Positions 127-45,203 of a stretch of 45,203 nt of DNA are shown piece after piece. A program made the position numbers and the translations under genes. Positions within the stretch are counted from its first letter, which is position 1, and each line of letters begins with the position of its first letter. The notes under the pieces were generated by a model. It had not been told where the DNA came from. It saw nothing but the letters and a program-made list of their open reading frames with translations, and ran no database searches. Origin of the DNA: a virus (Duplodnaviria; Caudoviricetes); the IMG/VR virus record IMGVR_UViG_3300049044_000095, positions 1 through 45,203 of that record; one strand, written 5' to 3'.

Positions 127-209
127 TTGGGAGGGACGCGATGCAAGGGGGGTGGGTAGATTGCGAGACCCCCCTCCCCCCTATGCGAAATCCCCACGTC
201 GATCAAGGC

Positions 210-461
210 TCAAGCAACGAAGCCTTCAGGAGCCTCAACCTTTTTGTACACACCAATGACGTTCTGTTCCACGATCTCATCAATAGCTGATTCAATCGCT
301 TCGTTCTGTTGTTCTTCAGACAGTTCATGTGATGTGTAGGCGATGCGGGCCAGGAACTGTGGGGTGTAGTAACCAGCACGCGCGTCGTACGCTTCCCATT
401 CCTCGTACTGAGTGAAGGGATCGTAAGGATTGTCGATTGTGCTAAGCATGTGCAGCTTCAC
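210..461 (-). CDS. Small acidic hypothetical phage protein
   Basis: 83-aa ORF (MLSTIDNPYDPF...) directly after the polymerase gene, with GGAGG upstream; start codon uncertain. Confidence 0.75.
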   Translation of the reverse strand: MKLHMLSTIDNPYDPFTQYEEWEAYDARAGYYTPQFLARIAYTSHELSEEQQNEAIESAIDEIVEQNVIGVYKKVEAPEGFVA

Positions 462-465
462 TCAA

Positions 466-3114
466 TCAACCTCCCTCAATCGAGGACGTGAGTGTGGACA
501 CAGACACACCAAGTTGATCCGCAACCTGAGCCTGGGTGTACCCAAGTCTCAGCATGGTGCGTGCCCTAGACTGCATAGCTGCAGTCATGGTAGGACGTTC
601 TCTTGGTGTGGCCAGAGCCTTGACCTTGTCAAGGTCTGCATTCTCCAAGATCTGACGCAGTACGTTGGTGCTCACAGCACCAGCCTGGATGGCCGCCCAT
701 TCATGGGGGGTGATGTCAATTCGAATCTTACCAGCACCGGTTTTGATTCGAGCTTTAGTAAGTTCCTGACTTTTGATCTTCTTCAAGTCAGAAGCTTCCA
801 TGTTGGGATTGGCATCACGCTTTACCTGGACGGCGGCGTTTGCTAGAAGCTGGGCCTGTCTTTCGAGGGGCTTGTTCCTCAATGCCACGTTTAGTTTGGC
901 ACGGAGGGTTGTTACAGCATCCGCATAAGCCTTCTTTGCAGTAGGGCTGTACGGAACACCCTTCGTGTTGACCATCTCTTTGCGAGCCTGATTAGCCAAC
1001 GCCTTCAGACTGTTGGAGTGGTCAGCGTAGATCTTTTCGATAGGGGTGTGAGAAGACAGGGTGTGTGCATCATCGGTTTCAGCAAGACGCTTCGACTCGA
1101 TGGTCTTCTTTACTGTCTGGCCCTTGCTATTGACATAGGTTTCGCCAGTCGGAACATAGACCAGCTTACCAGTGCGCTTATCGATAGGGCCGCCCTCTGC
1201 TGCAGGACGACCCTTTCTTGCTTCGACTCGAACAGAAGAAGTTGCTCTCGACACCAGGGTAGAAGCGCCTGCCTTTGCACTACCCTGAAACTTTGCTTTG
1301 AGTTGGCTGATTCCGTTGTCGATTGCCGACTGTTTGTAGTTGAGCTTGTGCTTTTCCGCATCGATTACAACCATGGAATGGCGGACAGCACGAGCGAGCT
1401 CGGTACTGGTAGCGCCACGAATGGTCATGTCCGTGATGAGATTGGAGACCAATCCCATTTCGATCTGCTTCGTTCGGGGTGACATCACCTTCATACCCGG
1501 GTACCCAGGGTATGCACGCTGAGGATCGAACCCCTTCAAGCCATCCAAAGCTTCAGCAGTCTTGATCTTTCTGCTGTTGTTTGGAATGACCAGCACAGTG
1601 TCGCCGTCGAAGTCTGCGCCTGACAATCGCTCGGCAACCTTGGAGTTGATACCGACCGCATCTTTCGCCTGACCCAAAGACTTCTTGGCCTGTGGATGGC
1701 GATTGTTGACAGTCAGTTCAGGGATCTCAAACACGCCACCGTGTGGGTAGCGGATGAGAACAACCTTCTCTCCATCACGGAAGTTCGGTGCGTAGATCTC
1801 TTTCTCGGAAAGAGTATTGATCGGAAGGATCACACTCGATCGCTGACGGGGCAGAGCGGCTGCCTTGAGATGAACAGCAGCGGCATCCACGTCATCAGAG
1901 AAAGATTGCAGAAGCTTCTGACGAACAGTCGGGTTCGTCAACGCCATGATCTCGTCGAACTCAGCTTGCTTGCGTTCACGAGTAACAGCGAGCTGTTCTT
2001 TGGCAAGCTTCGGACTCTGCTTCGACAACATCTGAGACGAGAGGTTGCGTGACCAGGCGTCCCAGTCACCTTCCTCGTTCACGATGTTCATGACCGACTT
2101 GACTTTGCCAGTCTTCGGATCGATTCTCTGACGAACCGTGGCACCGAATGGATTCTCAGGATCGTCAGTCTTGAGCTTCTTCATGGCGTCGAGCTTGTTG
2201 CCGGTGCTGCTCTTGTTGGTGTTGAACATCAAATCCACACCATCCGGCAAGTCATCCTTGTACATAGCCATACCTTTGAGGTAGTGGCTGCCGTCCACGG
2301 CGATGCGAACCTGGGCATAGCGAGCGCCACCCAGGTCAGTGTCTTTCACGCCGGGACGAACGTAGATGACTCCGTCAGCATCAGCTCCACCCTCTTCGGC
2401 GTATCGGACTGCGACACGCTTACTGCTGATCGACATGGGCGGTTGCACAGAAATGTACGAACGGCCACCCGAATCAGAGAAGGAACCGATTTGCTGCACT
2501 TTGCCGCGGTTCTTGGAGACCTCAGAGTACGTGACGCCAGGACCGGCCAGGACCTTGACTGTGGTCTCTTTGCCGGTGCCAAGCTGAGGCACCTTGAGGT
2601 AGTGCTCGGTATAGCCCTGAGCCTTGAGCGCAGCCACTGCAGTAGCGAGCTTGGTCTGGCTGATACCGAGATGGTTCTCAACGCCGGCGCCGATGTCGAC
2701 GTACTGCTTCTTGGCTACCGCATCCTTGAGCATGTTCGTGGTGGCACCCAGAACATCAGCTCGATCCTTGACGCCTGGCGCAAGCAGTGCGCGAACCTGC
2801 GACTCGTTGATGCCCAGTCGAGCGCCGATCGCAACGTTGGACATGCCTTTGTCCTTGAGACGCTGCGCCATGTTGATGCGGTCTTGACGTTCCGCGGTCT
2901 TCGCGATGGACTTCTGGGCGCGCAACTCGCTGGTTGTCATGCCCAAGTATTCAGCGATCTTGGCTTCGCTCATCCCACCTTTGCGAAGCTCTGCTTCGAT
3001 ACCGAGGAAGTCCCGGTTGCTCTTCTTGTTCGCTTCACCCGAACCCCATGGGTAACGACCCGAGTGTCGAGGGGTTCCGTAGTGGAGAAGCGAATCGCCC
3101 TCAGAATCGATCAA
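466..3114 (-). CDS. Single-subunit two-barrel (YonO/QDE-1-like) RNA polymerase with N- and C-terminal HTH domains
   Basis: Catalytic SGADFDGD (nt 1600-1623) follows RYP; the ordered motifs ADGVI, QVR, LKGM, MGLVSN and VIDAEK match the cellular RdRP/YonO family; HTH-like segments GMSEAKIAEYLGM, GMSNVAIGARLGI and GYTQAQVADQLGVS. Confidence 0.8.
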   Translation of the reverse strand: MIDSEGDSLLHYGTPRHSGRYPWGSGEANKKSNRDFLGIEAELRKGGMSEAKIAEYLGMTTSELRAQKSIAKTAERQDRINMAQRLKDKGMSNVAIGARLGINESQVRALLAPGVKDRADVLGATTNMLKDAVAKKQYVDIGAGVENHLGISQTKLATAVAALKAQGYTEHYLKVPQLGTGKETTVKVLAGPGVTYSEVSKNRGKVQQIGSFSDSGGRSYISVQPPMSISSKRVAVRYAEEGGADADGVIYVRPGVKDTDLGGARYAQVRIAVDGSHYLKGMAMYKDDLPDGVDLMFNTNKSSTGNKLDAMKKLKTDDPENPFGATVRQRIDPKTGKVKSVMNIVNEEGDWDAWSRNLSSQMLSKQSPKLAKEQLAVTRERKQAEFDEIMALTNPTVRQKLLQSFSDDVDAAAVHLKAAALPRQRSSVILPINTLSEKEIYAPNFRDGEKVVLIRYPHGGVFEIPELTVNNRHPQAKKSLGQAKDAVGINSKVAERLSGADFDGDTVLVIPNNSRKIKTAEALDGLKGFDPQRAYPGYPGMKVMSPRTKQIEMGLVSNLITDMTIRGATSTELARAVRHSMVVIDAEKHKLNYKQSAIDNGISQLKAKFQGSAKAGASTLVSRATSSVRVEARKGRPAAEGGPIDKRTGKLVYVPTGETYVNSKGQTVKKTIESKRLAETDDAHTLSSHTPIEKIYADHSNSLKALANQARKEMVNTKGVPYSPTAKKAYADAVTTLRAKLNVALRNKPLERQAQLLANAAVQVKRDANPNMEASDLKKIKSQELTKARIKTGAGKIRIDITPHEWAAIQAGAVSTNVLRQILENADLDKVKALATPRERPTMTAAMQSRARTMLRLGYTQAQVADQLGVSVSTLTSSIEGG

Positions 3115-3945: not shown

Positions 3946-3995
3946 GACACCTCCCAAAATTAAAGCGCGAGAGTAGACACATCCTACTCCCTCCT

Positions 3996-4020
3996 ATTAT
4001 AGCCCATGTTTTTTCGCCTA
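3996..4020 (-). promoter_or_regulatory. Variant copy of the repeated phage promoter
   Basis: Minus strand TAGGC-GAAAAA-ACA-TGGGC-TATAAT: same ACA-N5-TATAAT spacing as the four cassette promoters, with a divergent upstream element. Confidence 0.6.
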
Positions 4021-4539: not shown

Positions 4540-4695
4540 ACTTTGCCAAGATTTTTCGAAAAAAACTCTTACAGATTCTCTAGGTAGAAAGTATTATTAC
4601 TCTAGATTAGGTAGGTAGAAAGTAAAATATATAGTATATAATACTTTCTACCTAAGAAAACCTAAAGAGTTTTTTTCGAAAAATCTTGGCAAAGT
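4540..4695. repeat. AT-rich nested inverted repeat with iteron-like TAGGTAGAAAGT; candidate replication origin
   Basis: Perfect 31-bp arms at 4540-4570 and 4665-4695; inner perfect 16-bp arms at 4581-4596 and 4639-4654; a further TAGGTAGAAAGTA at 4612-4624; non-coding and very AT-rich. Confidence 0.85.
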
Positions 4696-11166: not shown

Positions 11167-11447
11167 CAGAAGTCGCCCTTTTCGTGATCGTTGTTCTCCG
11201 GGTCGCTCCGCTTCCACGTCTGCGGAATGGGACGTTCCCAGTCGACGTCCTCCTTGACACCACGAGCCGCCTCGAGAACCTCACGGAGCGTCGCGTCAAG
11301 ACCCTTCTCCGCCAAGGCAGCACTCGAGCCCACGAGCATCAGGTTGACGCACTGCTTGACGGACCATGGCAGGAGCTGGGCCACCCACATCGCCCAACGA
11401 GGCGGAAGCGGGTGCTTGCTCTTGATGTTGATCTTGATGGATTTCAT
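11166..11447 (-). CDS. Hypothetical protein
   Basis: 93-aa ORF, ATGA-coupled to the polymerase stop. Confidence 0.65.
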   Translation of the reverse strand: MKSIKINIKSKHPLPPRWAMWVAQLLPWSVKQCVNLMLVGSSAALAEKGLDATLREVLEAARGVKEDVDWERPIPQTWKRSDPENNDHEKGDF

Positions 11448-14400
11448 GCGACGAACTCCTCGAAAGAGCCGAACTTCTCGATGGTGTTCTTGGCGTCTTC
11501 CACCAGCTTCTCGAAGTAGCTGAGGTCGACGTCCTTATCGCCGAGCGACTTCTCCTCGACCCAGTGGTAGCCCTTGGTTCCGGTCGCCGCGTAGTCCTTG
11601 TTGTCGTGGACACGCAACAGCCGGCCGCCCTGCCCGGAGTTCTCGTCCACTGGAACGAACCTGCCGGTGCGCCCGACGAACTGCCGGCCCGTCGGGAGCT
11701 CCAACACGAGGTGGCCCTTCGAGACCTGCTTGGTCTCAGCCAGGTCCTTCGGCAGGATCGGATCGCCACTGAACAACGTCTTGAAGACGTACGGGTGCTT
11801 GAACTGAGCACCCACTGCGGTCCATTCGGCCTTCTCGTCCGGACCGGTCTGCGCGACGTACACGGCGTCGTTCACGAGCACGAACTTCTTGTAAGTGTTC
11901 TCGTGTTCGAAGGTGTAGCCATACTTCTCACCGAACCTGAAGACGAAGTCGATGATCTCCTGCGTAGCGCCGGGGATCTTGATCGAGTCCGTCTTGATGT
12001 GCGCGACCGTGAAGCCCTTCTCCTGCACTGCGTGCTTCAGGTCGATCATGAACAACGCACCGCGCTTGGCGGCGATGTTGTCCTTGTTGCGCTTGTCGCG
12101 GAACGGACTGTCGAACGTGGCCGACGTCAGTCCGTAGACCGTGTTGATCACGATCTTCAGCGCGTACGAAAGGCTGTTCGCCTTGCCGATGTCGTACACG
12201 TCCTCTCGATCCCGCAGATATGGATCGAGCTTTCCGCCCAGCATCTTGGAGGCCGCGTCGTAGTCCCGGTGCTTGATCGCGAGCCGAGCGTCCATCAGAG
12301 CCTTGAAGTTCGCCGTGTACTTGCCGAACATGTTCAGCTGGATGATGGAGGTGGGGTGCATCGAGGCGACGTCAAGGAGTGCGACATCCTCATACATTCC
12401 TTGTTCCGCGTATACGTAGCCACCTTCTCCGACCAGCTCTCCGCGGTACGTGGACTTCCCGAGGTCGAACTCGTACCCGGGGAATTCCTTGGAGAGATCG
12501 GTGTAGACGAAGTGTTGCTGGGGGTTGCGATCGCCCTCGAAGATGATCGCCGCGGTGTGGTTGGCGGTGGTGTGGTTGACCGTGAGCCCGCTGAGTTCTG
12601 CAAGGATCTGGCGAGCGACGAAGTCTTGCTCACGCGCTTCGAAGACCTGCTCCAACGTGACCACGTCGTTGACACAGTACTCCTCCACCTTCTTCCACAG
12701 CTCCTTGGGGACCGGTTCGTCCCAAGGAATGTCCATCTCCTGGTGGTTGAGGCCGAGCTCGATCTGGAACTTCTTGAGGGACTGCTTGACACTGCTGAAG
12801 TCGAAGACGTCCGCGTACGACAGATCGTACGCCTGCGCGAACATGCTGTTCGTCTTCTTGTCCATGATGCGCTGGCTGAGCTGGTAAAGCTGCTCGTTGC
12901 TGTAACCGAGCATCGCGCCCCACAGGATGTGGTTGTCGTACCTACGGTTGTTGAAGCCGACAAGCTTCAACTTGAACAGCCCCTCCACCTCGGCCGGCGT
13001 GGGGTTGATCATCCGAACCGTCGTGTCAGATCCGCGGTACTTCCAGCAGATCATGAACAGGTTGGGATACACCTCAATGTCAAAGAAGACAATGGGTGCG
13101 TCTCGCGGGACGGCGTCGACGACGGGCTGGTTGTGATGTACGGCCTGACCCGAGAAACGCATCTGTTGGACTGTCTTGAGACATGCCAAGGATTGGTTTG
13201 TACTGTTGTTCGCAAAGGCCAAGAGAGCGCCTCTGAGGTCAGTGACGTCGTACTGGAGACCCGAGGAATATGCCTCGTCAAGGATCTTCTTGATGAAGTC
13301 GATGGAAGGCTTGGTTCCGGGGTGGATCTCCTTCCGGACGTTGCGAGCGATGAGAGCACGAAGTCCCTGCTCGCTCTGAATCGTCGTTGCAGGGAGCACC
13401 TTGGGCTTCTCCTTGAGAGGAAGGCCGCTGCTGATCGTAGCGACTGGGACAGCGTTGCACTTCGTGAGACGACGACGAAGAGAAGCATTGCCGCCGTACA
13501 CCTTGATCTCGATTCCCTCGGAGAATATCCGGGAGAGTCGAGAAACATCACCGTCGTAAAGGTAGTGAAGATGAACTCCTTCACCACTCTTCGAGAGTTC
13601 GGCGTAGGTCGGAGGCCACTGCGAAGCGGCTTCGAGATTTCGAGCGAGTGTCTTCCCACCATCATCTCCCTTCAGATCGAAGTCGATCACGATGTGGTTC
13701 GGTGGGACCTTCACGTAGTGGAGCTCGTGAGTGTCGATTTCTGCCAAAGTCGTCTTGACCTTGGACCAGGACATAGACGGCGTACCGTCTTCTTTGCAGT
13801 GTTGCGCCGGCATCTCGGCGAGCATGTCATCAAGAAGTGAAACCTTGTCCTCGATGACAAGCGAGAATATGGCTTCGTCTTTCTGGATGGGTGCTTTGAA
13901 TTTGTTCGCGGTGAAGCCCGAGTAGTAGCTGCGGACCAGCGTCCCGTTTACCTCGGTCTTGTCCTTGAACTCGTCAAAGTAGTTGCGGAGTTCATCGCGG
14001 AGTTTGTACTGCGGAATGGGCTTCTCGATGCCCGTTGTGCTGCAGTACTCCTTGTACAGCTCGTACGCCTGCTTCAGCGTCGCGCCGTTCTGCTCCTCGA
14101 AGATCTCGTAATAGAACTCGATGAAATTGAAAATGACATCGGTTTGCAGCATCATCTCGGTAGGACGATAGCTGTTGTAGTAGTTCTTGCCATGAGTACG
14201 GTAGACATTCAAGCAATGAGTCGCGATAGCCCCAAGCTCGAAGTCGATCCGACTCATTATCGTGTTGTACTCGTTTGGCGGGATGATCACACCCGTGGGA
14301 TGAATGTCGATCAACCGACGAATGATACCAGACTTCGCGTCTGAAATTTTGACTGGCTGATTCGTCCCCATGAAGAGAAGCGCGTTCACCCGACCAACAT

Positions 14401-15178
14401 AGCTGGGCTTGTACTTCTCGTTCATACGGATGTCTTCGTGGGCGACAATGGAATTCAACTTCGTATTGTCGTCGATTCTGCTCAAGTCCCCATCGTGCTG
14501 GATCGCAACAAGTGGGTTTGTCTTGAACGCTTCCGTCGCGAAGGCGTTGTTGTTCGAGCCCAGCGCTTTCGCTTCGAAAGTCGCACAGTATCCGTCGAAC
14601 AGCTTCTCGATGATCGCCATGATCGTCGACTTCCCCGTACCCGGCTGGCCGTAGAAGACGAAGAACTTCTGGATCTTCTTGGAGTCGCCGGAGATGATCG
14701 AGCCGATTGCCCACTCGATCTTCCTCCTCTCCTCGACGGAGTAGAGCGTCCCTACAAGCTTATCCCACGAGGAGTAATCGCCCTCCTCAAGAGAATATGG
14801 CAGGCGACGACTGACGTAATCAGAGCGTTTCACCGTCTGATTCGCGAATGTGAGCTTCTCGTCCAGCTGGTGGAAGTTGTCGCTCACATTGCGCATGAGC
14901 ATACGGTAGTTGATCCACGATTTGCTGTTGTAGCTTCGCATGGACCTGATCGACGCACCGGGGTGATGCTCGTCAGCGTACTTCCGCAGCTCAGCGTCTA
15001 CCAGCCGGCCGACGTCGTACTCATCGGTAGACCAGAGACCCGCTTCTTCGTCCCAGATCGCATAGAACGAGGCGCCTCGAACCATGAGATCTTTGGAGCG
15101 ACCTACGATGAAGCTGGGGGTCAACGTGGTCTTGCCCTTTTTCTCATCGACGTCGACTTGCACTGTGTAGAAATCCAA
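11444..15178 (-). CDS. Fused SF3 (D5-like) helicase - AEP primase - family B DNA polymerase
   Basis: Walker A GQPGTGKST; AEP motifs VIDFD and SKSGEGVHLHY; exonuclease motifs FFDIE, GFNNRRYD and YCVND; PolB motifs DVASMHP, KIVINTVYG and KTDS; TTG start after AAGGGGG. Confidence 0.9.
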   Translation of the reverse strand: MDFYTVQVDVDEKKGKTTLTPSFIVGRSKDLMVRGASFYAIWDEEAGLWSTDEYDVGRLVDAELRKYADEHHPGASIRSMRSYNSKSWINYRMLMRNVSDNFHQLDEKLTFANQTVKRSDYVSRRLPYSLEEGDYSSWDKLVGTLYSVEERRKIEWAIGSIISGDSKKIQKFFVFYGQPGTGKSTIMAIIEKLFDGYCATFEAKALGSNNNAFATEAFKTNPLVAIQHDGDLSRIDDNTKLNSIVAHEDIRMNEKYKPSYVGRVNALLFMGTNQPVKISDAKSGIIRRLIDIHPTGVIIPPNEYNTIMSRIDFELGAIATHCLNVYRTHGKNYYNSYRPTEMMLQTDVIFNFIEFYYEIFEEQNGATLKQAYELYKEYCSTTGIEKPIPQYKLRDELRNYFDEFKDKTEVNGTLVRSYYSGFTANKFKAPIQKDEAIFSLVIEDKVSLLDDMLAEMPAQHCKEDGTPSMSWSKVKTTLAEIDTHELHYVKVPPNHIVIDFDLKGDDGGKTLARNLEAASQWPPTYAELSKSGEGVHLHYLYDGDVSRLSRIFSEGIEIKVYGGNASLRRRLTKCNAVPVATISSGLPLKEKPKVLPATTIQSEQGLRALIARNVRKEIHPGTKPSIDFIKKILDEAYSSGLQYDVTDLRGALLAFANNSTNQSLACLKTVQQMRFSGQAVHHNQPVVDAVPRDAPIVFFDIEVYPNLFMICWKYRGSDTTVRMINPTPAEVEGLFKLKLVGFNNRRYDNHILWGAMLGYSNEQLYQLSQRIMDKKTNSMFAQAYDLSYADVFDFSSVKQSLKKFQIELGLNHQEMDIPWDEPVPKELWKKVEEYCVNDVVTLEQVFEAREQDFVARQILAELSGLTVNHTTANHTAAIIFEGDRNPQQHFVYTDLSKEFPGYEFDLGKSTYRGELVGEGGYVYAEQGMYEDVALLDVASMHPTSIIQLNMFGKYTANFKALMDARLAIKHRDYDAASKMLGGKLDPYLRDREDVYDIGKANSLSYALKIVINTVYGLTSATFDSPFRDKRNKDNIAAKRGALFMIDLKHAVQEKGFTVAHIKTDSIKIPGATQEIIDFVFRFGEKYGYTFEHENTYKKFVLVNDAVYVAQTGPDEKAEWTAVGAQFKHPYVFKTLFSGDPILPKDLAETKQVSKGHLVLELPTGRQFVGRTGRFVPVDENSGQGGRLLRVHDNKDYAATGTKGYHWVEEKSLGDKDVDLSYFEKLVEDAKNTIEKFGSFEEFVA

Positions 15179-15189
15179 CGGTGACCCCC

Positions 15190-15717
15190 TTACATGTCTT
15201 GAAGGATGTATTCCATCATCTGGTACCAAAGGTCAACCTTGCGCTGATCTTTGGATGGATTTCGCAACGGGAACAAACCCCCGGTGCCGGCAAAATCGTA
15301 CAAGCGGCGATTCACGACGTACAGACGTGTCCGCACGAAGTCTTGGGAATAACCGCTTCGATCGTGGAAACCCTTGAATCCGAGATTCTCGACGAGATGC
15401 CAGAACCAGAATTCCACGGACTTTTCCGTCTGGAACTCCAGACGACGCGCGAGACCGAGCAGCATCTCCAGAAAAGAACATCCGAGGGAGAGCCATTCCT
15501 CGTCAACGTCGAGGCGCGCTTGAGCTGCCCATTCTCGACGTATGTCTTTCCCATCTTCTGCTCGGTCATCGTCGTTAGGGACGAAATATTCGAACTCCGT
15601 GCAGTAGAGCTGACGCAGGAGTTTCCAATATGTTTTCGTCCCTCTGCGGAGCCTGGCGTCGGCTACTTGGCCGTACATCCAGCCTAAGTAAACGTCGTCA
15701 GGCGTGCCGGCAGGCAC
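15190..15717 (-). CDS. Hypothetical phage protein
   Basis: 175-aa ORF packed tightly between its neighbours. Confidence 0.8.
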   Translation of the reverse strand: MPAGTPDDVYLGWMYGQVADARLRRGTKTYWKLLRQLYCTEFEYFVPNDDDRAEDGKDIRREWAAQARLDVDEEWLSLGCSFLEMLLGLARRLEFQTEKSVEFWFWHLVENLGFKGFHDRSGYSQDFVRTRLYVVNRRLYDFAGTGGLFPLRNPSKDQRKVDLWYQMMEYILQDM

Positions 15718-16426: not shown

Positions 16427-17308
16427 TCAGATCCGGTCGAGGATCACGCCGTCGACGTTGAAGTCGAGCCAGATCGCGCCCTCGGCCCCGCACATGAAGT
16501 CGCGGACCCGCTCGCTGCGCTCGTTCATGAAGCCGAAGTCGATGTATCCATCGCCGTGCGTCTCGCCCGCGACCCAGCCGACCTGCGCGCCGGCCCTGTT
16601 CTTCGGGAACCCGAGCGCCTCGTAGACCTCGTTCAGGAACACGAACCCGTGCTGCTGCAGCTTGTTGTTGAAGTAGTTCTGCTGCGCGGTCAGGAAGAAG
16701 ACGTTGTTCTCCGGCACGACGGTCCAGTTGACGTTGCCCTCGTCGAACAACATCGCGTACGGAGAGTAGCCGGCGCTGCGCTCGTGCTGGACGACCTTCT
16801 CCTTGCCGTCCTTACCGACCTGCACCTCCTCCACGATCTTCACGCCGTGGCGGAGCTTCTCCTCTTCCTCGGCGCCGTACTTGTCGATGATCTGCTGGCG
16901 GAGACGGTCGTAGCCCTCCTTCAGCCCGGCGTACGCGGCGGTAACAGCAGCAGTCCGGCGACTCTGCACGACCTGCGCGGCGGTGATCAGCGTGATCGAA
17001 ACCGCGGCCAGCGCGACTGCCGGCACGTACAGCTTCGCGACGTTCAGGACCGTGTGGACCTGAAGCTTGATGATGTCCTTCTTGTACTCGCCGTCGCGGT
17101 ACTCCTCGGAGAGCTCGGCCTTCTGGTGCGCCAGCTCCAGCAGCTTCTCGGTCGGCTCGAGCGTCTCGCTCAGCTTGAGCGTGTTCTTGCAGGCGAGCAC
17201 GCCGGCGCCGACGACACCAACGATGCCCGTCACGAGCATGATCTTGGGCGAAGCCTTCTGCAGCTTCAAAGCCGGCTTGGCCAGCTTCGCGGGGATCTGG
17301 AACTTCAT
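16427..17308 (-). CDS. DUF6353-like membrane-associated phage protein
   Basis: SPKIMLVTGIVGVV, FLNEVYEALG, IDFG and LDFNVDG; start reassigned to ATG 17308. Confidence 0.75.
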   Translation of the reverse strand: MKFQIPAKLAKPALKLQKASPKIMLVTGIVGVVGAGVLACKNTLKLSETLEPTEKLLELAHQKAELSEEYRDGEYKKDIIKLQVHTVLNVAKLYVPAVALAAVSITLITAAQVVQSRRTAAVTAAYAGLKEGYDRLRQQIIDKYGAEEEEKLRHGVKIVEEVQVGKDGKEKVVQHERSAGYSPYAMLFDEGNVNWTVVPENNVFFLTAQQNYFNNKLQQHGFVFLNEVYEALGFPKNRAGAQVGWVAGETHGDGYIDFGFMNERSERVRDFMCGAEGAIWLDFNVDGVILDRI

Positions 17309-17442
17309 CAGGAAACCTTCCCTTGCCTCTTGAGACGGAAATAGATGGCAACAACCTGAGCGTTGCTCATCTGTCGGACCCGGTCGGCCCATTTCTTATT
17401 CGGATATACCGACGAAATCTTGCGTCTGGCTACTTCCTCCAA
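17308..17442 (-). CDS. 44-aa basic hypothetical protein
   Basis: TTG after GGGAGG; YPNKKWADRVRQMSNAQVVAIY; TGATG coupling. Confidence 0.65.
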   Translation of the reverse strand: MEEVARRKISSVYPNKKWADRVRQMSNAQVVAIYFRLKRQGKVS

Positions 17443-18453: not shown

Positions 18454-18485
18454 GGGTCTCATTATAGCCCCTGTTATTCTTGCGA
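18454..18485 (-). promoter_or_regulatory. Repeated phage promoter
   Basis: TCGCA-AGAATA-ACA-GGGGC-TATAAT-GAGACCC. Confidence 0.85.
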
Positions 18486-19075: not shown

Positions 19076-19840
19076 CTACCTGACCTTGTTGTAGTGGCGG
19101 ATCGGAGTAGTGTTGTAGCGAATTGCGACCGCGGCTCTGCCGTCGTCGAGAAGAACCGCGGTGTGGTAGATGCTGAGCAGCTCGTCGCTGTTCCAGCCGA
19201 ACTCGCCGGAGAAGTCGCTCCGAGCGAGTCCGAGCAGATCGTAGAACTCGTCCAGACCGGCGTAGTTCGTCTGGTTGATCTGGTAGTTGATCTGGTTGAC
19301 CGCGTCCTGAACGCGCTGCATGGTCGACTCGAAGAACTGACCCGAGAACTCGTCGAAGAACGGGTGGTTGCCGCCCGTCACGATGATCGTGGGACTCGCG
19401 AGCTGCTGACGCATCTGGTCGTGAGCGACCTCAGCTCGGATGTTCTCTTCGCTCTTCGCACCGACAGCTTCGATGACCTTCTGGCGGTACATCTCCTGAG
19501 CTTCGTCGGCGACCTTGAAAGCCGCTGCCAGAGCTGCAGCGCGGCGAGCTTCCACGCGGTTCGCGCAGACAATCGCGCAGATGGTGATCGCCCCGACGAC
19601 AGCCGGCGGGATGAACTCCTTCCAGACGACTTCGACCTTCTCGCGTGTGGTCAGCATCCCGCGATCGTGCTGACGCTTTTCGATCAGCGCGTTCTCCAGC
19701 AAGAGCGCCGAAGAATATGACGCTCTGCCGGCCAGTACCGCCGTGGTGATGACGCCGGCGACGCCGATGCCGGTCATGATCGCCGGAGAGTTGTCAATGA
19801 CGAAACGTTCAGCGGCTTTGAGAACCGTCTTCAAGCTCAC
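19076..19840 (-). CDS. DUF6353-like protein, paralog of 16427-17308
   Basis: NSPAIMTGIGVAGV, LDEFYDLLGL and FGW; GGAGG RBS. Confidence 0.75.
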   Translation of the reverse strand: MSLKTVLKAAERFVIDNSPAIMTGIGVAGVITTAVLAGRASYSSALLLENALIEKRQHDRGMLTTREKVEVVWKEFIPPAVVGAITICAIVCANRVEARRAAALAAAFKVADEAQEMYRQKVIEAVGAKSEENIRAEVAHDQMRQQLASPTIIVTGGNHPFFDEFSGQFFESTMQRVQDAVNQINYQINQTNYAGLDEFYDLLGLARSDFSGEFGWNSDELLSIYHTAVLLDDGRAAVAIRYNTTPIRHYNKVR

Positions 19841-20742: not shown

Positions 20743-20774
20743 GGGTCTCATTATAAGCCATGTAGATTATGCGA
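20743..20774 (-). promoter_or_regulatory. Repeated phage promoter
   Basis: TCGCA-TAATCT-ACA-TGGCT-TATAAT-GAGACCC. Confidence 0.85.
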
Positions 20775-21229: not shown

Positions 21230-21261
21230 GGGTCTCATTATAGCCCCTGTAAAACTTGCGA
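21230..21261 (-). promoter_or_regulatory. Repeated phage promoter
   Basis: TCGCA-AGTTTT-ACA-GGGGC-TATAAT-GAGACCC. Confidence 0.85.
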
Positions 21262-21649: not shown

Positions 21650-21681
21650 GGGTCTCACTATAAGCCATGTTTTTCTTGCGA
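21650..21681 (-). promoter_or_regulatory. Repeated phage promoter
   Basis: TCGCA-AGAAAA-ACA-TGGCT-TATAGT-GAGACCC, abutting the holin stop. Confidence 0.85.
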
Positions 21682-30881: not shown

Positions 30882-32021
30882 TTAATCGCCTTCGCGGATG
30901 ATCGTGAGATCGTGCCGGTGGCCAGCCAGTCCGTCGGCTTCGTCCAGGGCGTTCCCACTGGCAGCGCCGTTGTAGAACGCGGCTCCGATTCCCGTACCGG
31001 CAGTCAAACGGCCCCGATAGAACGCTTGACCATTCCAGAAACACGGGGCGGCCGCGAGCTCCGTGCCGAGCGTGTTGTTCGAGGGCAATGTGAACAACTT
31101 CACCCAACTCTGATCGCGGATGTTGTAGCTGCCGTTGTACTGGATCGTGTACAGGCCGTCCTTGTTCACCAAGATACGGCGCGCGGTAGCAAGATCCGGC
31201 GAAGGAATCGTGAACCACTCGTTGTCGGGATTGTACGCGTAGGCCGATTCCGTCGTGTTGAACGGGACAGCCACATCGTTGCCGGCCGCGTAGGTGCTGC
31301 CGCCGGTGTTCTTGTAGGCACGAATCCGCGGCTGCGTTCGCGGTCGACCAACGTTGAACCCGATCCAGGTGTTGGTAGCCGTCTTCAGCAGGCGAACCAG
31401 GCTGAAGTTTGGCATCACGTTGCTGACGCCGGACAACGTCACAGTGCTTGCGGGGGTCAGTTTCGCACCGCCAGAGCTGATGGTGCAAATATCCACCCAT
31501 GTTCCGATCGGGAAAGCCACCGATGCGTTCGTGGGGATGGTCACGACGATTTGCGCCGTCTGCGACGTGTGATCCACGAAAATCATCTGACAAGCATCGC
31601 CGATGAGCAGCGTGTGGTTCCCCGTGACGGTACGGATCACGGTCTCCCGTCGAGCAGCTAGCAACTGCCCGTAAGTCGCCACGTCCGAATCGGCTGCGCC
31701 GTCGACCGCCTTCATGCGACCGCTGGCGTCACGGATCGGAATCTTGTTCGGGTCCGGATCAGCGTCCACATCGTTGGAGCTCAGAAATGCGTCAGCGCTG
31801 ATCCCGTCGAGGAGCTCCGAGTCCGCGGCCTTCCCCAGCTTCGGGAGGTAGTAATCCGCGAAAGCAGCCGGAAGATTTGTCCACGTGTTCGCGCCGTCGC
31901 CGATCTTGATGACGCCGGTGTCGATCGCAACACCGAATTCGCCATCGTCCAACACGACGTCAGAAACTGCCCACTCGGCTTCCAGACCGCGACGTTGCTG
32001 TTGCTTAACGCCTACTGCCAT
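30882..32021 (-). CDS. Tail fibre-like protein with Mtd_N/hyaluronidase-type N-terminal anchor
   Basis: QRRGLEAEW...L.DGEFGV..DTG.IKIGDG..TW..LP; later TIPTNASVAFPIGT. Confidence 0.75.
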   Translation of the reverse strand: MAVGVKQQQRRGLEAEWAVSDVVLDDGEFGVAIDTGVIKIGDGANTWTNLPAAFADYYLPKLGKAADSELLDGISADAFLSSNDVDADPDPNKIPIRDASGRMKAVDGAADSDVATYGQLLAARRETVIRTVTGNHTLLIGDACQMIFVDHTSQTAQIVVTIPTNASVAFPIGTWVDICTISSGGAKLTPASTVTLSGVSNVMPNFSLVRLLKTATNTWIGFNVGRPRTQPRIRAYKNTGGSTYAAGNDVAVPFNTTESAYAYNPDNEWFTIPSPDLATARRILVNKDGLYTIQYNGSYNIRDQSWVKLFTLPSNNTLGTELAAAPCFWNGQAFYRGRLTAGTGIGAAFYNGAASGNALDEADGLAGHRHDLTIIREGD

Positions 32022-32770
32022 TACACCTCACCACTATCGATAGTCGTCGTGACAGGAGTGTCGATGTTTCCGGCATCGTGGGTCGAGAACACCGGCGTGA
32101 GCGGACCTCCAGCGTCGTAGACCAGATCCTGGAACGAATCGAACAAGAACACAAGCTCGCCGGCCGAAGGAAGCGTCGGAGCAGACTCATCACTGCCGTA
32201 AAGCATGTTTTCGAGCTGCAACAGCAACTCGGCTGGCGTATCCCTCGAATCGATCTCGTAATGAGCGGTCGGAATGACACCAGAGACTTTGTCGCCGCGG
32301 CCGGTAACTTCCCAACTGAATTCCATCGGGTCGTTATCGTCGTTCAGCGTCTCGTATCCTCTTTCTGCCGGCTGAGCGCGCAGATTGTAGAGAATATGAA
32401 TCTTGTAGGCCAGATCTGTGCCGACTTGATCGTCGCCTACCAGCGTGCGATAGCACATCGCAAAGGGCAGACGACGCTGGTGGCGTGCCTTGAGCCCGTT
32501 TCCAAGCGAAGCTGTCCCATCGCACGGTTCGAACTCGGGAGGAAACGTGATGGCGTTGATCGTCGCTTCGAACTTCTCGGGAGAGGTGTAGTTGCTGATC
32601 ACCATCCCGTCGAGATAGCGACGTTTGTCTTCGCCGCCAGACCGAGGGAGATTCACCGCGGTCAAACCAATCCATGGGACGCCGGGATTGTCGCCGACGT
32701 ACAAGACGCCGCGGTCAACACCTGCTTCGAAGAACCGCTTTCCCACGCCATCCCAGTTAATTCGCGTCAC
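32021..32770 (-). CDS. Second tail-tube-like protein (major tail paralog)
   Basis: GVDRGVLY, GVPWIGLT, F..CYRTL.G.D and FSWE match 33325-34206; GTG start after GGAGG. Confidence 0.8.
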   Translation of the reverse strand: MTRINWDGVGKRFFEAGVDRGVLYVGDNPGVPWIGLTAVNLPRSGGEDKRRYLDGMVISNYTSPEKFEATINAITFPPEFEPCDGTASLGNGLKARHQRRLPFAMCYRTLVGDDQVGTDLAYKIHILYNLRAQPAERGYETLNDDNDPMEFSWEVTGRGDKVSGVIPTAHYEIDSRDTPAELLLQLENMLYGSDESAPTLPSAGELVFLFDSFQDLVYDAGGPLTPVFSTHDAGNIDTPVTTTIDSGEV

Positions 32771-32781
32771 GCATCCTCCCC

Positions 32782-33312
32782 TCAGCCGGTAGTATTCCAC
32801 TCGCGTTTGCGCTGCTTGTTCAGAGCTCTGCGTTGCTCCAAACTCATCTTTTGCTTCGGCCCCTTCTTGAGGGCGTGAACCTGGATCAACGTGAACAGCT
32901 TGTTGAGATGCCAGTGTTGGTATTCTACTGGAATGTTCAACTCGCTCATCCAGTAGTAAATCAGCTCTGACGTGATTGCTTCGCGCTGTCCTTGATTCTG
33001 CTTACGGCTCGGCAGGACCGTTGCCGTGTTCTTGGCAGCCACATACGTCTTGATCTCCTCCATGTGATTCAGAAGGAGTTGGTAGAAAACCGCCGGAGAA
33101 GGTTCATCCCCGACAATCATCGCTTTTATGTATGAGATCGTCTCTTCGTCGGTCCGCGGTTCTGGAGACAGAAACCGTTTTTCGTGAATCGACTCCCATT
33201 TTGACAACGAGACAAGAGAATGCTCGAGCTCGACTCGCACGGATTCTGAAGCGACGAACTTATTGGTTTCCTCGTCGTAAGATTCCTCCGTTACGACGTC
33301 AATCACGAGCAT
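32782..33312 (-). CDS. Tail assembly chaperone
   Basis: LEHSLVSLSKWES, TSELIYYWM and WHLNKL; lies between the major tail and tape measure genes. Confidence 0.75.
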   Translation of the reverse strand: MLVIDVVTEESYDEETNKFVASESVRVELEHSLVSLSKWESIHEKRFLSPEPRTDEETISYIKAMIVGDEPSPAVFYQLLLNHMEEIKTYVAAKNTATVLPSRKQNQGQREAITSELIYYWMSELNIPVEYQHWHLNKLFTLIQVHALKKGPKQKMSLEQRRALNKQRKREWNTTG

Positions 33313-33324
33313 TCTCTCACCTCC

Positions 33325-34206
33325 TTACGCGAACGTGAAGACCCACTGCGTCTGGGTCGGCACCGGGAACTTGTAGCCGGTGGCCGGGTACGCTCGGACC
33401 TCCGTGTTTGCCGTGATCGGACCGTAGTCGCCGGCCGGAACGATGACGCCGTTGATCTTGTACTCGACGCCCGTCGTGTTCGGGATCGTGATGAGGTCCG
33501 TCGTCGAGTTGTACGTCGGAGCCGCCGGCGTGGCGCTCGTGAGCGTCGACGCCATCATCAGGATCACGTCGGCCGGCAGCGGCAGGATCGCATCGGTCGA
33601 AGCCGTGCCGTACAGCGCGTCCTCGAGAGCCGCCAGCTTTGCCGGATCGGTCTTGAGGCTGTTGACGGTCATCTTGGCCGTCGGCTTGTACGGGATGCCC
33701 AAGACCGTCCCGACGTTGACGGGGGTGGTCGAGATCTCCCACGAGAACGCGGTCGGCTCCGGCGAGTCGTTGACCGTCTCGCTGGCCTTCTCGGAAGGCG
33801 CCGCCAGCGCACCCCAGACGAGGTTGAGCTCGTACCCGTAGTCGTTGGCCTCGACGTCGTTGCCGATCAGCGTCCGGTAGCAGAAACCGAACGGCTTGCG
33901 CCGCTGCTGACCGATGGTGACGCCAGGGGTCGGAACGGCCGAACCGTCGTTCTGCTCGAACTCGTCCGGGTAGCTCAGCGCCTCGATGGTCCCGCCGAAC
34001 TCCTCGACCGAGAGGAGGTTCAGGTAGACCATGTTGTCGGCGTACTTCTTGTTGGACTCGGCGCCCGAAGGCGACGCGGTGACGTTGGTCAGGCCGTTCC
34101 ACGGCACGCCATCGACGTACTCGCCGGCGTCGAGCTGGTACAACACACCACGATCCACACCCGTGCGGTAGAGCCGCTCACCGGTCTTGTCCCACTCGAG
34201 CTTCAT
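33325..34206 (-). CDS. Major tail protein with C-terminal Ig-like domain
   Basis: MKLEWDKTGERLYRTGVDRGVLY and YADN; strong codon bias; position in the tail module. Confidence 0.9.
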   Translation of the reverse strand: MKLEWDKTGERLYRTGVDRGVLYQLDAGEYVDGVPWNGLTNVTASPSGAESNKKYADNMVYLNLLSVEEFGGTIEALSYPDEFEQNDGSAVPTPGVTIGQQRRKPFGFCYRTLIGNDVEANDYGYELNLVWGALAAPSEKASETVNDSPEPTAFSWEISTTPVNVGTVLGIPYKPTAKMTVNSLKTDPAKLAALEDALYGTASTDAILPLPADVILMMASTLTSATPAAPTYNSTTDLITIPNTTGVEYKINGVIVPAGDYGPITANTEVRAYPATGYKFPVPTQTQWVFTFA

Positions 34207-34218
34207 ACTGCCTCGCAT

Positions 34219-36864: not shown

Positions 36865-36875
36865 GGCGTCTCCTT

Positions 36876-38144
36876 TCATGAAGCTGAGCGAAGTCGCTCG
36901 GGCGGCGGCTCTATCGCGCGCTGTGGCGCACGAGGTTCGAGAGCCGGTTGCGGTCCATTGCCGCGTTTGTCGTCAGGCATGTTGGCGTTGTCGAGCTTGT
37001 CGGCCTTCTTCTCCTTCGACGGAATGAAGCCGATGGCCGTGCGGATCTCGTTCGAGGTGAGGATCTCGTTCCTCGTGAACTTGTCTGCGATCTCCGCCAA
37101 CTGATCCACAGGGATCAACGCGAACGGGTCGCGGAAGTACTCGATGCTCTGCCCCTGCGTCCTGGCGGTCTTCGTCAGGAAGGAACGACGCATGGCCTCC
37201 ACGATCGCTTGGACGATCGGCTTGACCGTGCGGTTGTAGTAGTTCTGCATCTCCGGCTGGTCGGCAGTGCCGTCCATGACCTTCTTGGAAATGCCCAGCT
37301 GGCTGTAGAGCAACGCTTCGAGGTACTCAACTTGCTTGAGCAAGTTGTTTTCCGAAGGTCGGTTGAGCTGCGTGACCTTCTCAGTACCATCGATGTAGGC
37401 AATGCCGTATTGACTGCCCTTGAGTTGAAACTCGATGTCCGTTCGGCGCTGTTCCGCCTGCTTCCGTCGCACATCGGACTTGGTGGAATATGGCAATTGG
37501 ATGATGAGATCCAGCTTGCCCGAGCTAGATTGCTCGTCGACCGCGTCCAGAAGATGCAGCTTCCGAATAAGACGCTGAAGCGTCGAATTCGGCTCGTTCA
37601 TGATCGGGTAGAAGGGATTCTCCACGATCGCGACGAATTCTTTGCTGAGGGCGACTTCTTCGCGTCGGCCGTTTTGCTCGTTGTACACCTCGACGCGAAT
37701 ATGCTGCGGATGCCACTGCACAATCCGCCCTACTCGCATGGTCTTGATGTCGAACCCGCCCGTCAAGTTCGGATTCATCGTTGTGTCGACCGGTACGACA
37801 GCAATCACGCCTTCGTCAAAGAGCGACAAGGCCACGTCCATCCGAAAATGCCGAGCGGCTTGGTCGACGTTTGCCTGAAGATTCAAGCATTCGTTCAGAC
37901 CGCTCTTGATTTCAGACTCGAAGCGTCCCTGATCGTCCAAGCGTACATGCTTGATGACCAGTTCCGAGACGTCGATCGCCAGACGAGTGTAGATCGCGGC
38001 GATGATCGTCTTTTCGTTCGTGTACCTGAGGCGAGTTCGGTCCGGCCGAGAACCGTAAGCCGCGTACGACTCGTAGAGCTCTTGCTTGTCGAGGTTTACG
38101 AACGCGTTCCAGGCATGCTGCAGCCGGTCCTTCCATTTGCCCAT
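36876..38144 (-). CDS. Portal protein
   Basis: Between TerL and the capsid gene; HK97-portal-like LTSNEIR; 422 aa. Confidence 0.9.
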   Translation of the reverse strand: MGKWKDRLQHAWNAFVNLDKQELYESYAAYGSRPDRTRLRYTNEKTIIAAIYTRLAIDVSELVIKHVRLDDQGRFESEIKSGLNECLNLQANVDQAARHFRMDVALSLFDEGVIAVVPVDTTMNPNLTGGFDIKTMRVGRIVQWHPQHIRVEVYNEQNGRREEVALSKEFVAIVENPFYPIMNEPNSTLQRLIRKLHLLDAVDEQSSSGKLDLIIQLPYSTKSDVRRKQAEQRRTDIEFQLKGSQYGIAYIDGTEKVTQLNRPSENNLLKQVEYLEALLYSQLGISKKVMDGTADQPEMQNYYNRTVKPIVQAIVEAMRRSFLTKTARTQGQSIEYFRDPFALIPVDQLAEIADKFTRNEILTSNEIRTAIGFIPSKEKKADKLDNANMPDDKRGNGPQPALEPRAPQRAIEPPPERLRSAS

Positions 38145-39909: not shown

Positions 39910-40275
39910 CTAGCCAGCTCCGCCTGTCACCGCGGCCTTGGCGAACAGTTTGACCGCGGCCTTGCCAGCCTGAGCTTGCACCTCGCGCTTGCCGATCTCG
40001 AGAACCGTCGAAGAGAGCCAGCGGGTGACTGCAGACTGCTCGTTGACCTTCAGCCGCTTGAAGTCCTGCTCCAACTGCATGCGCCGAATTGCCGCCTGCA
40101 GATCGGCGTTGGAGACCGAGCCGATCTTGGTCTGCTTGACCTTGGTCTTGATGCTTTCCTTCTGCCGCGCATCTGCCGTGACCGGATGGGGCTTCTTCTT
40201 GCGAATACCCCATCGCATTCCCTTCACGCCGAAGTGGGCCAAGAACGCGTCGACTTTGATGTCGGTGGTGTCCAT
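39910..40275 (-). CDS. Small basic protein with H(F/Y)GVKGM(R/K)WG N-terminal motif
   Basis: FLAHFGVKGMRWGIRK; ATG at 40275 after GGAGG. Confidence 0.8.
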   Translation of the reverse strand: MDTTDIKVDAFLAHFGVKGMRWGIRKKKPHPVTADARQKESIKTKVKQTKIGSVSNADLQAAIRRMQLEQDFKRLKVNEQSAVTRWLSSTVLEIGKREVQAQAGKAAVKLFAKAAVTGGAG

Positions 40276-40613
40276 TCCTCCTCCTCCCGTTTGACATTGA
40301 GACGCCATTCGAACTCTTTGATCTGTTCTTTCATGGCTTCGAGAAGGAAGGAAGTCGATGGAGGATCGAACAGCATTCGCACGCGCAAGAAGACGTACGA
40401 CTTGGCGTCGTTGAAGCGATCGTCGCCATTCAGGACCGAATCCCAGGTCGCACTTTCGTCTTCGATCCTGAAGCCTTGCGCCGGGCCGATACCCAGCTGA
40501 TTCAACGTAGCAAACGCTGTGTTGATGTGCATGATCACATCAGGATCGAACACATCATAGTCATCAGGGATGCCGACAGCGTGCTTGATGCTGACAAGGA
40601 TGCTCTCGCTCAA
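40224..40613 (-). CDS. Head-tail adaptor (gp6/gp15-like)
   Basis: SIL.SIK, FD.D.IMHIN.AF..L.QLGIG, LFDPP and EWRL; TTG start after GGAGG. Confidence 0.7.
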   Translation of the reverse strand: MSESILVSIKHAVGIPDDYDVFDPDVIMHINTAFATLNQLGIGPAQGFRIEDESATWDSVLNGDDRFNDAKSYVFLRVRMLFDPPSTSFLLEAMKEQIKEFEWRLNVKREEEEWTPPTSKSTRSWPTSA

Positions 40614-45180: not shown

Positions 45181-45203
45181 CGCGTCCCTCCCAAAAATTG
45201 CTC

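What the first reader, a model, noticed from the sequence alone, without database searches (positions are those of the whole stretch)
466..3114. Compact two-barrel RNA polymerase with built-in HTH domains
Seen: the motifs DG(VI), QVR, KGM, RYP, SGADFDGD, G(LV)SN and VIDAEK occur in order in an 882-aa protein. Known: this is the signature of the QDE-1/RDR and SPbeta YonO family of double-psi-beta-barrel polymerases, and DFDGD matches the beta-prime catalytic loop. Seen: two HTH-like segments at the N-terminus and one at the C-terminus. Inference: a single-chain DNA-dependent RNAP that carries its own sigma-like promoter readers, in a genome of only 45 kb. Automatic annotation could easily label it just an HTH protein.
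Basis: partly seen in the sequence, partly recalled or inferred. Interest (0 to 1): 0.9.

Follow-up and report, generated by a model that had tools for sequence, protein, structure and literature searches.

The report
Phage two-barrel RNA polymerase with HTHs
This soil phage gene encodes a small single-chain protein predicted to fold like the catalytic core of cellular RNA polymerases, a family already proposed in print, and it likely travels inside the virus particle and likely reads a promoter-like DNA motif repeated in the phage's own genome.

Summary
Observation confirmed; the ORF is on the minus strand. All motifs occur in order. The eight catalytic residues are conserved in 148-150 of 150 homologues, and the predicted fold matches QDE-1/RDR2 and Thermus phage RNAPs. 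It is not new. It belongs to PHROG 4291, the phage-1706 family found in 250 phage records. Koert et al. already reported the RdRP-like hit, DxDGD and HTHs at both ends, and this scan met the family on other DNA before.

Added here: (1) a fourth module, a winged helix; the HTHs are generic and no sigma region 2 was found. (2) A promoter-like motif, TCGCA-N14-TATArT-GAGACCC: five sites, coding strand only, none in the structural arm, one ahead of the RNAP's own operon; 38 of 38 long viral contigs carrying it encode this RNAP. (3) Indirect signs of virion packaging: the 1706 orthologue is annotated structural, the N-terminus shares half a tag with head-module proteins, and one homologue is fused to a portal. 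(4) A TCGCA-N16-TGCAT element next to cos.

Best reading: a likely virion-delivered, DNA-dependent early RNAP. I found no bench test of the family.

The parts
466..3114 (-). Single-chain two-barrel RNA polymerase gene, 882 aa, 95.6 kDa, pI 9.7 (PHROG 4291, phage-1706 gp75 family)
3037..3090 (-). N-terminal tag, residues 9-26 (hxHYG..xSGRYPWGSG). Highly conserved, low pLDDT in the model; first half resembles DUF7211 head-module tags; candidate capsid-loading signal
2905..3018 (-). HTH1, about residues 33-70
2782..2895 (-). HTH2, about residues 74-111 (Pfam HTH_23, E 5e-10 for the whole protein)
2497..2778 (-).
   Evidence: TFIIIC tau138 eWH, Z 8.8-8.9, rmsd 3.3-3.7, 86 aligned
2215..2439 (-). 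First (beta-type) barrel region, about residues 226-300, with D247, Q268/R270, K280; boundaries approximate
1579..1854 (-). Second (beta-prime-type) double-psi beta-barrel, about residues 421-512, with R455, P457 and DFDGD 501-505 (window 1600-1614)
469..603 (-). C-terminal HTH, about residues 838-882
210..461 (-). Small acidic ORF (79-83 aa, pI 4.1; PHROG 4303, 1706 gp76-like) directly after the RNAP; candidate accessory subunit or inhibitor (untested)
3989..4020 (-). Class I promoter-like site (weaker, degenerate TCGCA box) ahead of the endonuclease-exonuclease-RNAP-small ORF operon
   Evidence: leave-one-out PWM score 17.8, threshold 14
18454..18485 (-). Class I promoter-like site TCGCA-N14-TATAAT-GAGACCC
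20743..20774 (-). Class I promoter-like site
21230..21261 (-). Class I promoter-like site
21650..21681 (-). Class I promoter-like site (TATAGT variant)
132..181 (-). Conserved genome-end element: G-run, TCGCA-N16-TGCAT, then the inferred 9-nt cos; late promoter firing across the ligated ends, or terminase site
39910..40308 (-). DUF7211 protein beside the terminase, carrying the full-form tag

Best explanation
The gene encodes a 96-kDa single-chain protein predicted to fold as a two-barrel polymerase, likely a DNA-dependent RNA polymerase that is likely packaged in the phage head and likely transcribes the phage's early and middle genes from the repeated TCGCA-N14-TATArT-GAGACCC motif. Shown: the ORF, the conserved catalytic residues, four HTH or winged-helix modules, and the motif with its fixed spacing, strand bias and positions. 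Predicted: the two-barrel fold. Inferred steps: (1) The N-terminal hxH[YF]G tag directs it into the prohead together with the DUF7211 proteins, and the prohead protease may trim it. (2) It is ejected with the DNA. (3) Its fused HTH and winged-helix modules bind the TCGCA, AC and TATArT boxes in place of a sigma factor. (4) It transcribes the small middle-region genes, the replication genes and its own operon, giving positive feedback. How the structural arm is transcribed is open; the cos-adjacent TCGCA-N16-TGCAT element may be a late promoter for the same enzyme. Component odds: active polymerase 0.92, DNA template 0.9, reads the class I motif 0.7, virion-packaged 0.6.
For: Catalysis: R270, K280, R455, P457, D501, D503 and D505 are present in 150/150 aligned homologues and D247 in 148/150 (E in 2); DxDGD is in 150/150. 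Fold: AF2 mean pLDDT 84.6; Foldseek top hits QDE-1 E 1e-9, then RDR2, P74-26 gp62, P23-45 gp64 and gp96; VIA-align RDR2 Z 17.2 (rmsd 4.9, 393 aligned), QDE-1 Z 17.0 (4.4, 362), gp62 Z 13.7 (4.7, 358). Promoter: 64 of 73 TCGC...TATArT pairs lie exactly 19 nt apart in 15 sequences. Of 56 strict sites in 14 genomes, 45 lie between the tail genes and the primase-polymerase, 3 before the helicase, 8 before the RNAP operon, 0 in the structural arm and 0 on the opposite strand; 0 in 40 Markov controls. The canonical -35 position is unconserved outside the two bases that overlap the TCGCA box. 38 of 38 searched viral contigs of 40 kb or more picked by the motif encode this RNAP, while only 6 stretches on 5 contigs match in 185,579 prokaryote genomes. 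A variant occurs 12 times in 34%-GC Lactococcus phage 1706. Virion: 1706 orf75 (40% identical) is annotated 'structural protein'. The tag is as conserved as the barrels (0.78 vs 0.69-0.72) and is present in 70/72 further loci. It aligns with DUF7211-type tags (HHalign 94.6%, 14 columns), and a DUF7211-tag HMM hits best within the first 60 residues in 110 of the 118 RNAPs it hits at all, of 150. 1706 gp7, a DUF7211 protein, is also 'structural'. One homologue without the tag is fused behind a portal domain (P0153).
Against: No activity, transcript or virion data exist for this phage. TATAAT is the perfect host -10 box, so host RNAP (with or without a phage activator) could read class I sites. 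Motif-RNAP co-occurrence is confounded by shared ancestry of the whole lineage, 7 of the 38 contigs were already known to carry the gene, and a strict pattern found the motif upstream in only 26 of 52 more distant loci. The 1706 'structural' label is a GenBank annotation; the mass-spectrometry basis is recalled and the paper was not held. Two small untagged genes (orf62, orf71) carry the same label, and a basic DNA-binding protein could co-purify. The ReqiPoco6 label is copied from 1706, so it is not independent. Only half the tag is shared, and single-sequence scores are not significant (E 0.28 or worse). The three long fusions form one clade (quick tree), so they are one event, each a single metagenomic sequence without context. 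The closest tested precedent by name, YonO, transcribes late genes.
Confidence: 0.5

Rival explanations
1. Non-virion, YonO-like late RNAP. Host sigma-A holoenzyme, perhaps with a phage activator, reads the class I TATAAT promoters, including the one ahead of this gene; the new enzyme then transcribes the structural arm from the cos-adjacent element once the genome has circularised.
For: YonO transcribes late genes (PMC5467207). No class I site lies in the structural arm, so a second promoter type is needed. The TCGCA-N16-TGCAT element sits next to cos, points into the structural arm, and has N16 in 37 of 39 matches among 79 IMG/VR loci. An activator box about 13 bp upstream of TATAAT resembles T4 middle promoters (recalled). 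The gene lies in the replication module.
Against: The same TCGCA box is in both element classes, which suggests one reader. The motif is kept across Actinobacteria and Firmicutes hosts and is nearly absent from prokaryote genomes. It leaves the N-terminal tag, the 'structural' label and the portal fusion unexplained.
Confidence: 0.25
2. It is a DNA-dependent RNAP but not self-sufficient. Promoter recognition or melting needs a second factor, such as the small acidic ORF that follows it, or a host or phage protein; the HTHs are not a full sigma replacement.
For: The small ORF follows the RNAP in 60 of 61 IMG/VR loci (59 by the script's filter plus L068, which overlaps by one base) and in 54 of 55 metagenome loci. 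pI 4.1 versus 9.7. No sigma-2-like unit was found. Three fused homologues lack most HTHs.
Against: Adjacency alone does not show binding, and the small ORF may act at the neighbouring genome end. All four HTH-type modules are aligned in 149-150 of 150 homologues.
Confidence: 0.15
3. RNA-dependent RNA polymerase, as the PHROG and RefSeq label says.
For: Top fold hits are QDE-1 and RDR2; weak Pfam RdRP match.
Against: It is a dsDNA phage with four DNA-binding-type modules; the Pfam RdRP score is 13 bits against a 23.8 cut-off. Tested phage single-chain relatives (YonO, P23-45 gp64 and gp96) use DNA templates.
Confidence: 0.04
4. Polymerase used for something other than mRNA, such as priming or packaging-related RNA synthesis at the origin or cos, or a catalytically idle DNA-binding regulator.
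For: It sits beside replication genes and the genome end, and the TCGCA element also flanks cos.
Against: The genome has its own primase-polymerase. Catalytic residues are invariant. Class I sites sit about 20-30 nt ahead of ribosome-binding sites and start codons.
Confidence: 0.06

Closest known systems
PHROG 4291: Lactococcus phage 1706 gp75, FP_oengus 'putative RNA polymerase', and the 'HTH DNA-binding domain protein' of actinophage clusters BI, AM, AU, AW, DJ, CC, EL (Ruprich-Robert & Thuriaux 2010, PMC2919709; Koert et al., bioRxiv 10.1101/842583)
   Same: Full-length orthologue: PHROG score 1357 bits; 64% to Streptomyces phage RosaAsantewaa gp54; 40% to 1706 gp75; same position at the right genome end; N- and C-terminal HTHs and DxDGD already described.
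   Different: Nothing in kind. The parts of Koert et al. I read do not mention promoters ('promoter' has 0 hits in the main text), virion packaging of the enzyme, or the winged helix.
Bacillus phage SPbeta YonO (Forrest et al. 2017, PMC5467207)
   Same: About 100-kDa single-chain two-barrel enzyme with the same motif order (DG, VR/KG, RxP, DxDGD).
   Different: No significant profile match (HHalign 1.2%, single-sequence template); YonO has no Pfam HTH; YonO is a proven late-gene RNAP of a 134-kb temperate phage.
Thermus phage P23-45 gp64 (non-virion) and gp96 (tape-measure-fused virion) RNAPs (Chaban et al. 2024, PMC10770324)
   Same: Closest solved phage folds (gp62/gp64 Z 13.3-13.7; gp96 Z 9.4); phage-specific promoter motifs; virion delivery in a siphovirus.
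   Different: Two enzymes there, one here. No HTH is mentioned for them ('helix-turn-helix' has 0 hits in the main text). The candidate loading route here is a head tag, not tape-measure fusion.
Eukaryotic RNAi polymerases QDE-1 and RDR2
   Same: Best overall structural match over residues about 224-720 (Z 15-17).
   Different: 13-15% identity; below the Pfam RdRP cut-off; those enzymes lack the phage HTH modules and act in RNA silencing.

Membership tests
Two-barrel polymerase superfamily | Eight invariant active-site residues (PMC2919709 sections 8-9) | tested here: met
   D247 148/150; R270, K280, R455, P457, D501, D503, D505 150/150. The one-to-one mapping onto QDE-1 residues is by motif order, not read from a superposition.
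Two-barrel polymerase superfamily | Two double-psi beta-barrels in one chain | tested here: met
   Predicted model aligns to QDE-1 678-1186 over 371 residues (Z 15.5, rmsd 4.4) and to isolated DPBB domains at 423-512 (Z 9.5, rmsd 1.9). This is a model, not a solved structure.
Two-barrel polymerase superfamily | Template-directed NTP incorporation dependent on DxDxD | not testable with these tools
   Needs purified protein.
PHROG 4291 / phage-1706 family | Full-length homology | tested here: met
   Residues 3-880 match profile 6-906 of 909; 40% to 1706 gp75 over 986 columns.
PHROG 4291 / phage-1706 family | HTH domains at both termini; helicase-HNH-exonuclease-RNAP-small ORF block at the genome end | tested here: met
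YonO (SPbeta family proper) | Sequence similarity beyond the catalytic motifs | tested here: inconclusive
   HHalign 1.2% with a single-sequence template, which is insensitive.
YonO (SPbeta family proper) | Same domain architecture | tested here: not met
   YonO has no Pfam match at E<=1, hence no HTH; this protein has several.
YonO (SPbeta family proper) | Transcribes late genes | not testable with these tools
   No RNA run holds this DNA.
Eukaryotic RDR / QDE-1 (PF05183) | Pfam gathering score | tested here: not met
   13 bits versus 23.8.
Sigma-70 factor (for 'sigma-like readers') | Region 2 (core binding, -10 melting) | tested here: not met
   PF04542 has no match at E<=10 anywhere in the genome; the control rang in 11 of 14 genomes.
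Sigma-70 factor (for 'sigma-like readers') | Region-4 HTH specifically, rather than a generic HTH | tested here: inconclusive
   Sigma70_r4_2 passes its cut-off only as a sum over short stretches; HTH_23 and HTH_3 pass too; NCBIfam sigma models are far below cut-off.
Virion-packaged RNAPs (N4, crAss-like, P23-45 gp96) | Present in purified virions and active before phage protein synthesis | not testable with these tools
   Only the GenBank 'structural protein' label of 1706 orf75 and indirect tag and fusion evidence.
DUF7211 (PF23847) | Pfam match of the N-terminal tag | tested here: not met
   No PF23847 match for the RNAP or its first 60 residues at E<=10; only the first half of the tag aligns.

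The most novel reading that the evidence does not exclude
One 96-kDa enzyme runs the whole transcription programme of this large phage lineage without host RNAP or any sigma factor. It is loaded into the head by a peptide tag and injected, starts at TCGCA-N14-TATArT promoters through its own fused HTH and winged-helix readers, and later switches to a TCGCA-N16-TGCAT promoter that fires across the ligated cos site, so genome circularisation gates late genes.
Probability: 0.2. Interest if true: 0.78.

Novelty: new member of a known kind. Interest (0 to 1): 0.42.

Why it matters
How single-chain two-barrel RNAPs recognise promoters is open; the YonO paper states this explicitly. This family is very common (250 phage records, at least 8000 database proteins), has many cultured phages on harmless laboratory hosts, and pairs a small enzyme with a sharply defined candidate promoter. 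That makes the question directly testable and could yield a compact orthogonal expression system for Actinobacteria and Firmicutes. It would also correct many 'HTH protein' and 'RNA-dependent RNA polymerase' annotations. The existence and identity of the protein family are already in print.

Tried and rejected
Sequence search of the PDB found no polymerase: phmmer gave one chance hit, and the profile gave only HTH and designed-helix hits. A fold search of residues 27-210 gave no Foldseek match at E<=0.001; VIA gave generic winged helices (best Z 8.8) and a sigma-28 row at Z 6.1, rmsd 4.0, which I do not count. The crAss-like phi14:2 gp66 was not among the listed PDB rows, which excludes nothing. 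An ESM Atlas search for the small ORF gave nothing usable. No RNA holder was listed for this DNA. No DNA context was found for the long fusions. P0273 (primase-polymerase+RNAP) and P0274 (RNAP+tape measure) join abruptly and were set aside as probable assembly chimeras. The shuffle control may have produced shortened sequences, so I rely on the full-length Markov control. Counts of the cos element included duplicates; one search is the one-row-per-locus count. The careful tree did not finish; the quick tree is quoted. Garneau 2008 (phage 1706) did not come up in my searches and is cited from recall only. Summer 2011 (ReqiPepy6/Poco6) was not held (one search was a wrong id). Ten literature searches showed no bench study of this family and no description of the motif, but subscription papers are mostly missing, Koert's supplements (Fig S1) are closed, and the Chaban supplements were only term-searched (no relevant hit; one file cut).
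Full report
1. Observation. The 882-codon ORF at 466..3114 is on the minus strand. The seven motifs occur in the stated order. HTH-type Pfam matches lie at about 39-66, 74-110 and 848-879. The DNA is real and under purifying selection: four other soil or rhizosphere runs cover it with no indels, and 7 of 7 substitutions inside the ORF are silent. The window is a near-complete siphovirus-type genome, with its recognisable genes on the minus strand: lysin, terminase, portal, protease-capsid fusion, tail, holin, small genes, primase-polymerase, helicase, HNH, endonuclease, exonuclease, this gene and a small ORF.

2. Identity. The protein matches PHROG 4291 end to end (1357 bits). tblastn finds 250 phage records, 249 covering at least 80% of the query: Arthrobacter 95, Gordonia 55, Streptomyces 54, Lactococcus 13 and others. 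The best is Streptomyces phage RosaAsantewaa at 64%. Most listed records call it an HTH protein; some RefSeq copies say 'RNA-dependent RNA polymerase'. The protein databases gave 8000 of 8000 scored candidates and 913 50%-clusters at E<=1e-30. In 150 aligned homologues (44-84% identity; five fused or partial rows and P0130/P0135 left out), DxDGD is in 150/150, and R270, K280, R455 and P457 are invariant; D247 is D in 148 and E in 2. These correspond by order to the eight invariant residues of PMC2919709 (sections 8 and 9 read). The AF2 model (pLDDT 84.6, pTM 0.76) matches QDE-1 (Foldseek E 1e-9) and, by VIA-align, RDR2 Z 17.2, QDE-1 Z 17.0, P74-26 gp62 Z 13.7 and P23-45 gp64 Z 13.3 over about residues 224-720.

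3. The DNA-binding modules. There are four, not three: HTH1, HTH2, a winged helix at about 113-206 (best match TFIIIC tau138 eWH, Z 8.8-8.9) and the C-terminal HTH. All are aligned in 149-150 of 150 homologues but are less conserved than the barrels (about 0.46-0.49 versus 0.69-0.72). They are generic. Sigma region 4 scores no better than HTH_23, and no sigma region 2 was found in the genome. 'Sigma-like' can only be meant functionally.

4. Candidate promoters. Repeat finding gave a 33-nt family that reads TCGCA-N6-AC-N6-TATArT-GAGACCC on the coding strand, about 20-30 nt ahead of ribosome-binding sites of small genes. A weaker fifth site precedes the RNAP operon. In 15 sequences (the window, 12 IMG/VR genomes, RosaAsantewaa and 50 kb of ReqiPoco6), 64 of 73 TCGC...TATArT pairs are exactly 19 nt apart. 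Of 56 strict sites in 14 genomes, none lies in the structural arm or on the opposite strand; 40 Markov controls gave none. The sigma-70 -35 position is unconserved. Phage 1706 has 12 copies of a variant. A motif-only scan of IMG/VR (20 of 64 parts) gave 177 loci. I took the 40 contigs of 40 kb or more; 38 could be searched and 38 of 38 encode this RNAP, 7 of them already known to. Prokaryote genomes gave 6 stretches on 5 contigs. Against: the co-occurrence reflects shared descent as much as function, TATAAT is also the host -10, and a strict pattern found a site upstream in only 26 of 52 more distant loci. A second element, G-run-TCGCA-N16-TGCAT, lies directly before the cos overhang annotated in ReqiPoco6. 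It was found in 39 of 79 IMG/VR loci (many end too early; 7 of 14 long ones), with N16 in 37, and 30 contigs stop within 12 nt after it. It shares the TCGCA box and points into the structural arm. A late promoter and a terminase site cannot be told apart by sequence.

5. Virion packaging. GenBank labels 1706 orf75 (40% identical) 'structural protein'. With the portal, capsid and two tail genes, such labels total 15, which fits my recollection of 15 virion proteins found by mass spectrometry in Garneau 2008 (recalled, not read). The RNAP starts with hxH[YF]G..SGRYPWGSG, conserved at 0.78, present in 70 of 72 further loci and low-confidence in the model. Its first half aligns with DUF7211-type tags on 1-7 head-module proteins per genome (HHalign 94.6%, 14 columns; best hit within the first 60 residues in 110 of 118 RNAPs hit). 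One such protein, 1706 gp7, is also 'structural'. A hydrophobic-x-His pattern is enriched in the capsid precursor (10.8 per 1000 aa versus 0.65-2.6 in seven other proteins), consistent with protease sites; this test followed a lead from earlier scan notes. Three about 1800-aa proteins carry the RNAP core at their C-terminus without the tag; one begins with a portal domain (E 3e-29) and one has a weak DUF3626 match. They resemble the virion-packaged polyvalent proteins of PMC5512222 (passages read) and form one nested clade. Two others have an N-terminal 2H phosphoesterase ahead of the tag. All of this is indirect.

6. Mechanism. Most likely (0.5 overall) it is a head-packaged, DNA-dependent early/middle RNAP that reads class I promoters with its fused modules. 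A class I site ahead of its own gene argues for delivery in the virion or a host-driven start. The main rival (0.25) is a non-virion late RNAP like YonO. A small acidic ORF follows the gene in 60 of 61 and 54 of 55 loci and may be a cofactor; this could not be modelled.

7. Prior knowledge. Koert et al. (bioRxiv 10.1101/842583; parts 1-2 of 4 and term passages read) report the HHpred RdRP hit (95.68%), HTHs at both ends and DxDGD, and propose RNA polymerase activity. PMC2919709 lists a phage-1706 family of YonO-like proteins. PMC5467207 (parts 1-2 of 5) shows YonO is DNA-dependent and late, and leaves promoter recognition open. PMC10770324 (passages and section 12) gives the P23-45 precedent. 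PMC5513430, PMC13313380 and PMC13432834 (passages) added nothing on the enzyme. This scan has look-alike stretches in 37 other genomes, and 8 earlier notes were shown, several already proposing the tag, packaging and a promoter element; these are unchecked notes, not support.

8. Verdict. The feature is real and correctly recognised, and it is a new member of a known but untested family. Interest 0.42: low surprise, but the promoter motif, the cos-adjacent element and the packaging hints make an open question testable with cultured phages.

Noticed in passing
window 4540-4695: AT-rich 58-nt inverted repeat (88% complementary, 40-nt spacer) between the helicase and HNH genes; likely replication origin. 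Similar AT-rich stretches were seen at the same place in some relatives.
   Followed up: no
window 132-181 (-): Conserved genome-end element sharing the TCGCA box with the promoters. It can fold as a G/C hairpin (DNA energy -9.2 kcal/mol, no shuffle control) and abuts the inferred 9-nt cos.
   Followed up: partly
window 34849-36879 (-): Protease-capsid fusion with repeated hydrophobic-x-His sites in its N-terminal half, 4-16 times denser than in seven other proteins across 15-16 genomes; candidate maturation sites.
   Followed up: partly
window 11444-15229 (-): 1261-aa fused primase/helicase-DNA polymerase (PHROG 4210), typical of this lineage.
   Followed up: no
P0147, P0153, P0272: About 1800-aa polyvalent-type proteins with this RNAP core at the C-terminus, lacking the tag and most HTHs; one is portal-fused; one clade; no DNA context found.
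   Followed up: partly
P0130, P0135: RNAP homologues with an N-terminal 2H phosphoesterase (2'-5' RNA ligase superfamily) domain placed before the tag; a possible nucleotide-signal-degrading cargo (inference).
   Followed up: no
window 32021-32800 and 33325-34218 (-); 16427-17392 and 19076-19840 (-): Two paralogous major-tail genes (PHROG 2645) and two DUF6353 paralogues.
   Followed up: no
window 45055-45203: 126-nt overlap with positions 1-126 plus a 24-nt inverted copy of 118-141 at the very end: assembly artefacts at a cos-ended genome.
   Followed up: yes
L299-L304: The few prokaryote-genome matches to the promoter motif are on mostly short contigs, four of the five from MAGs; probably phage pieces binned with hosts.
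   Followed up: no
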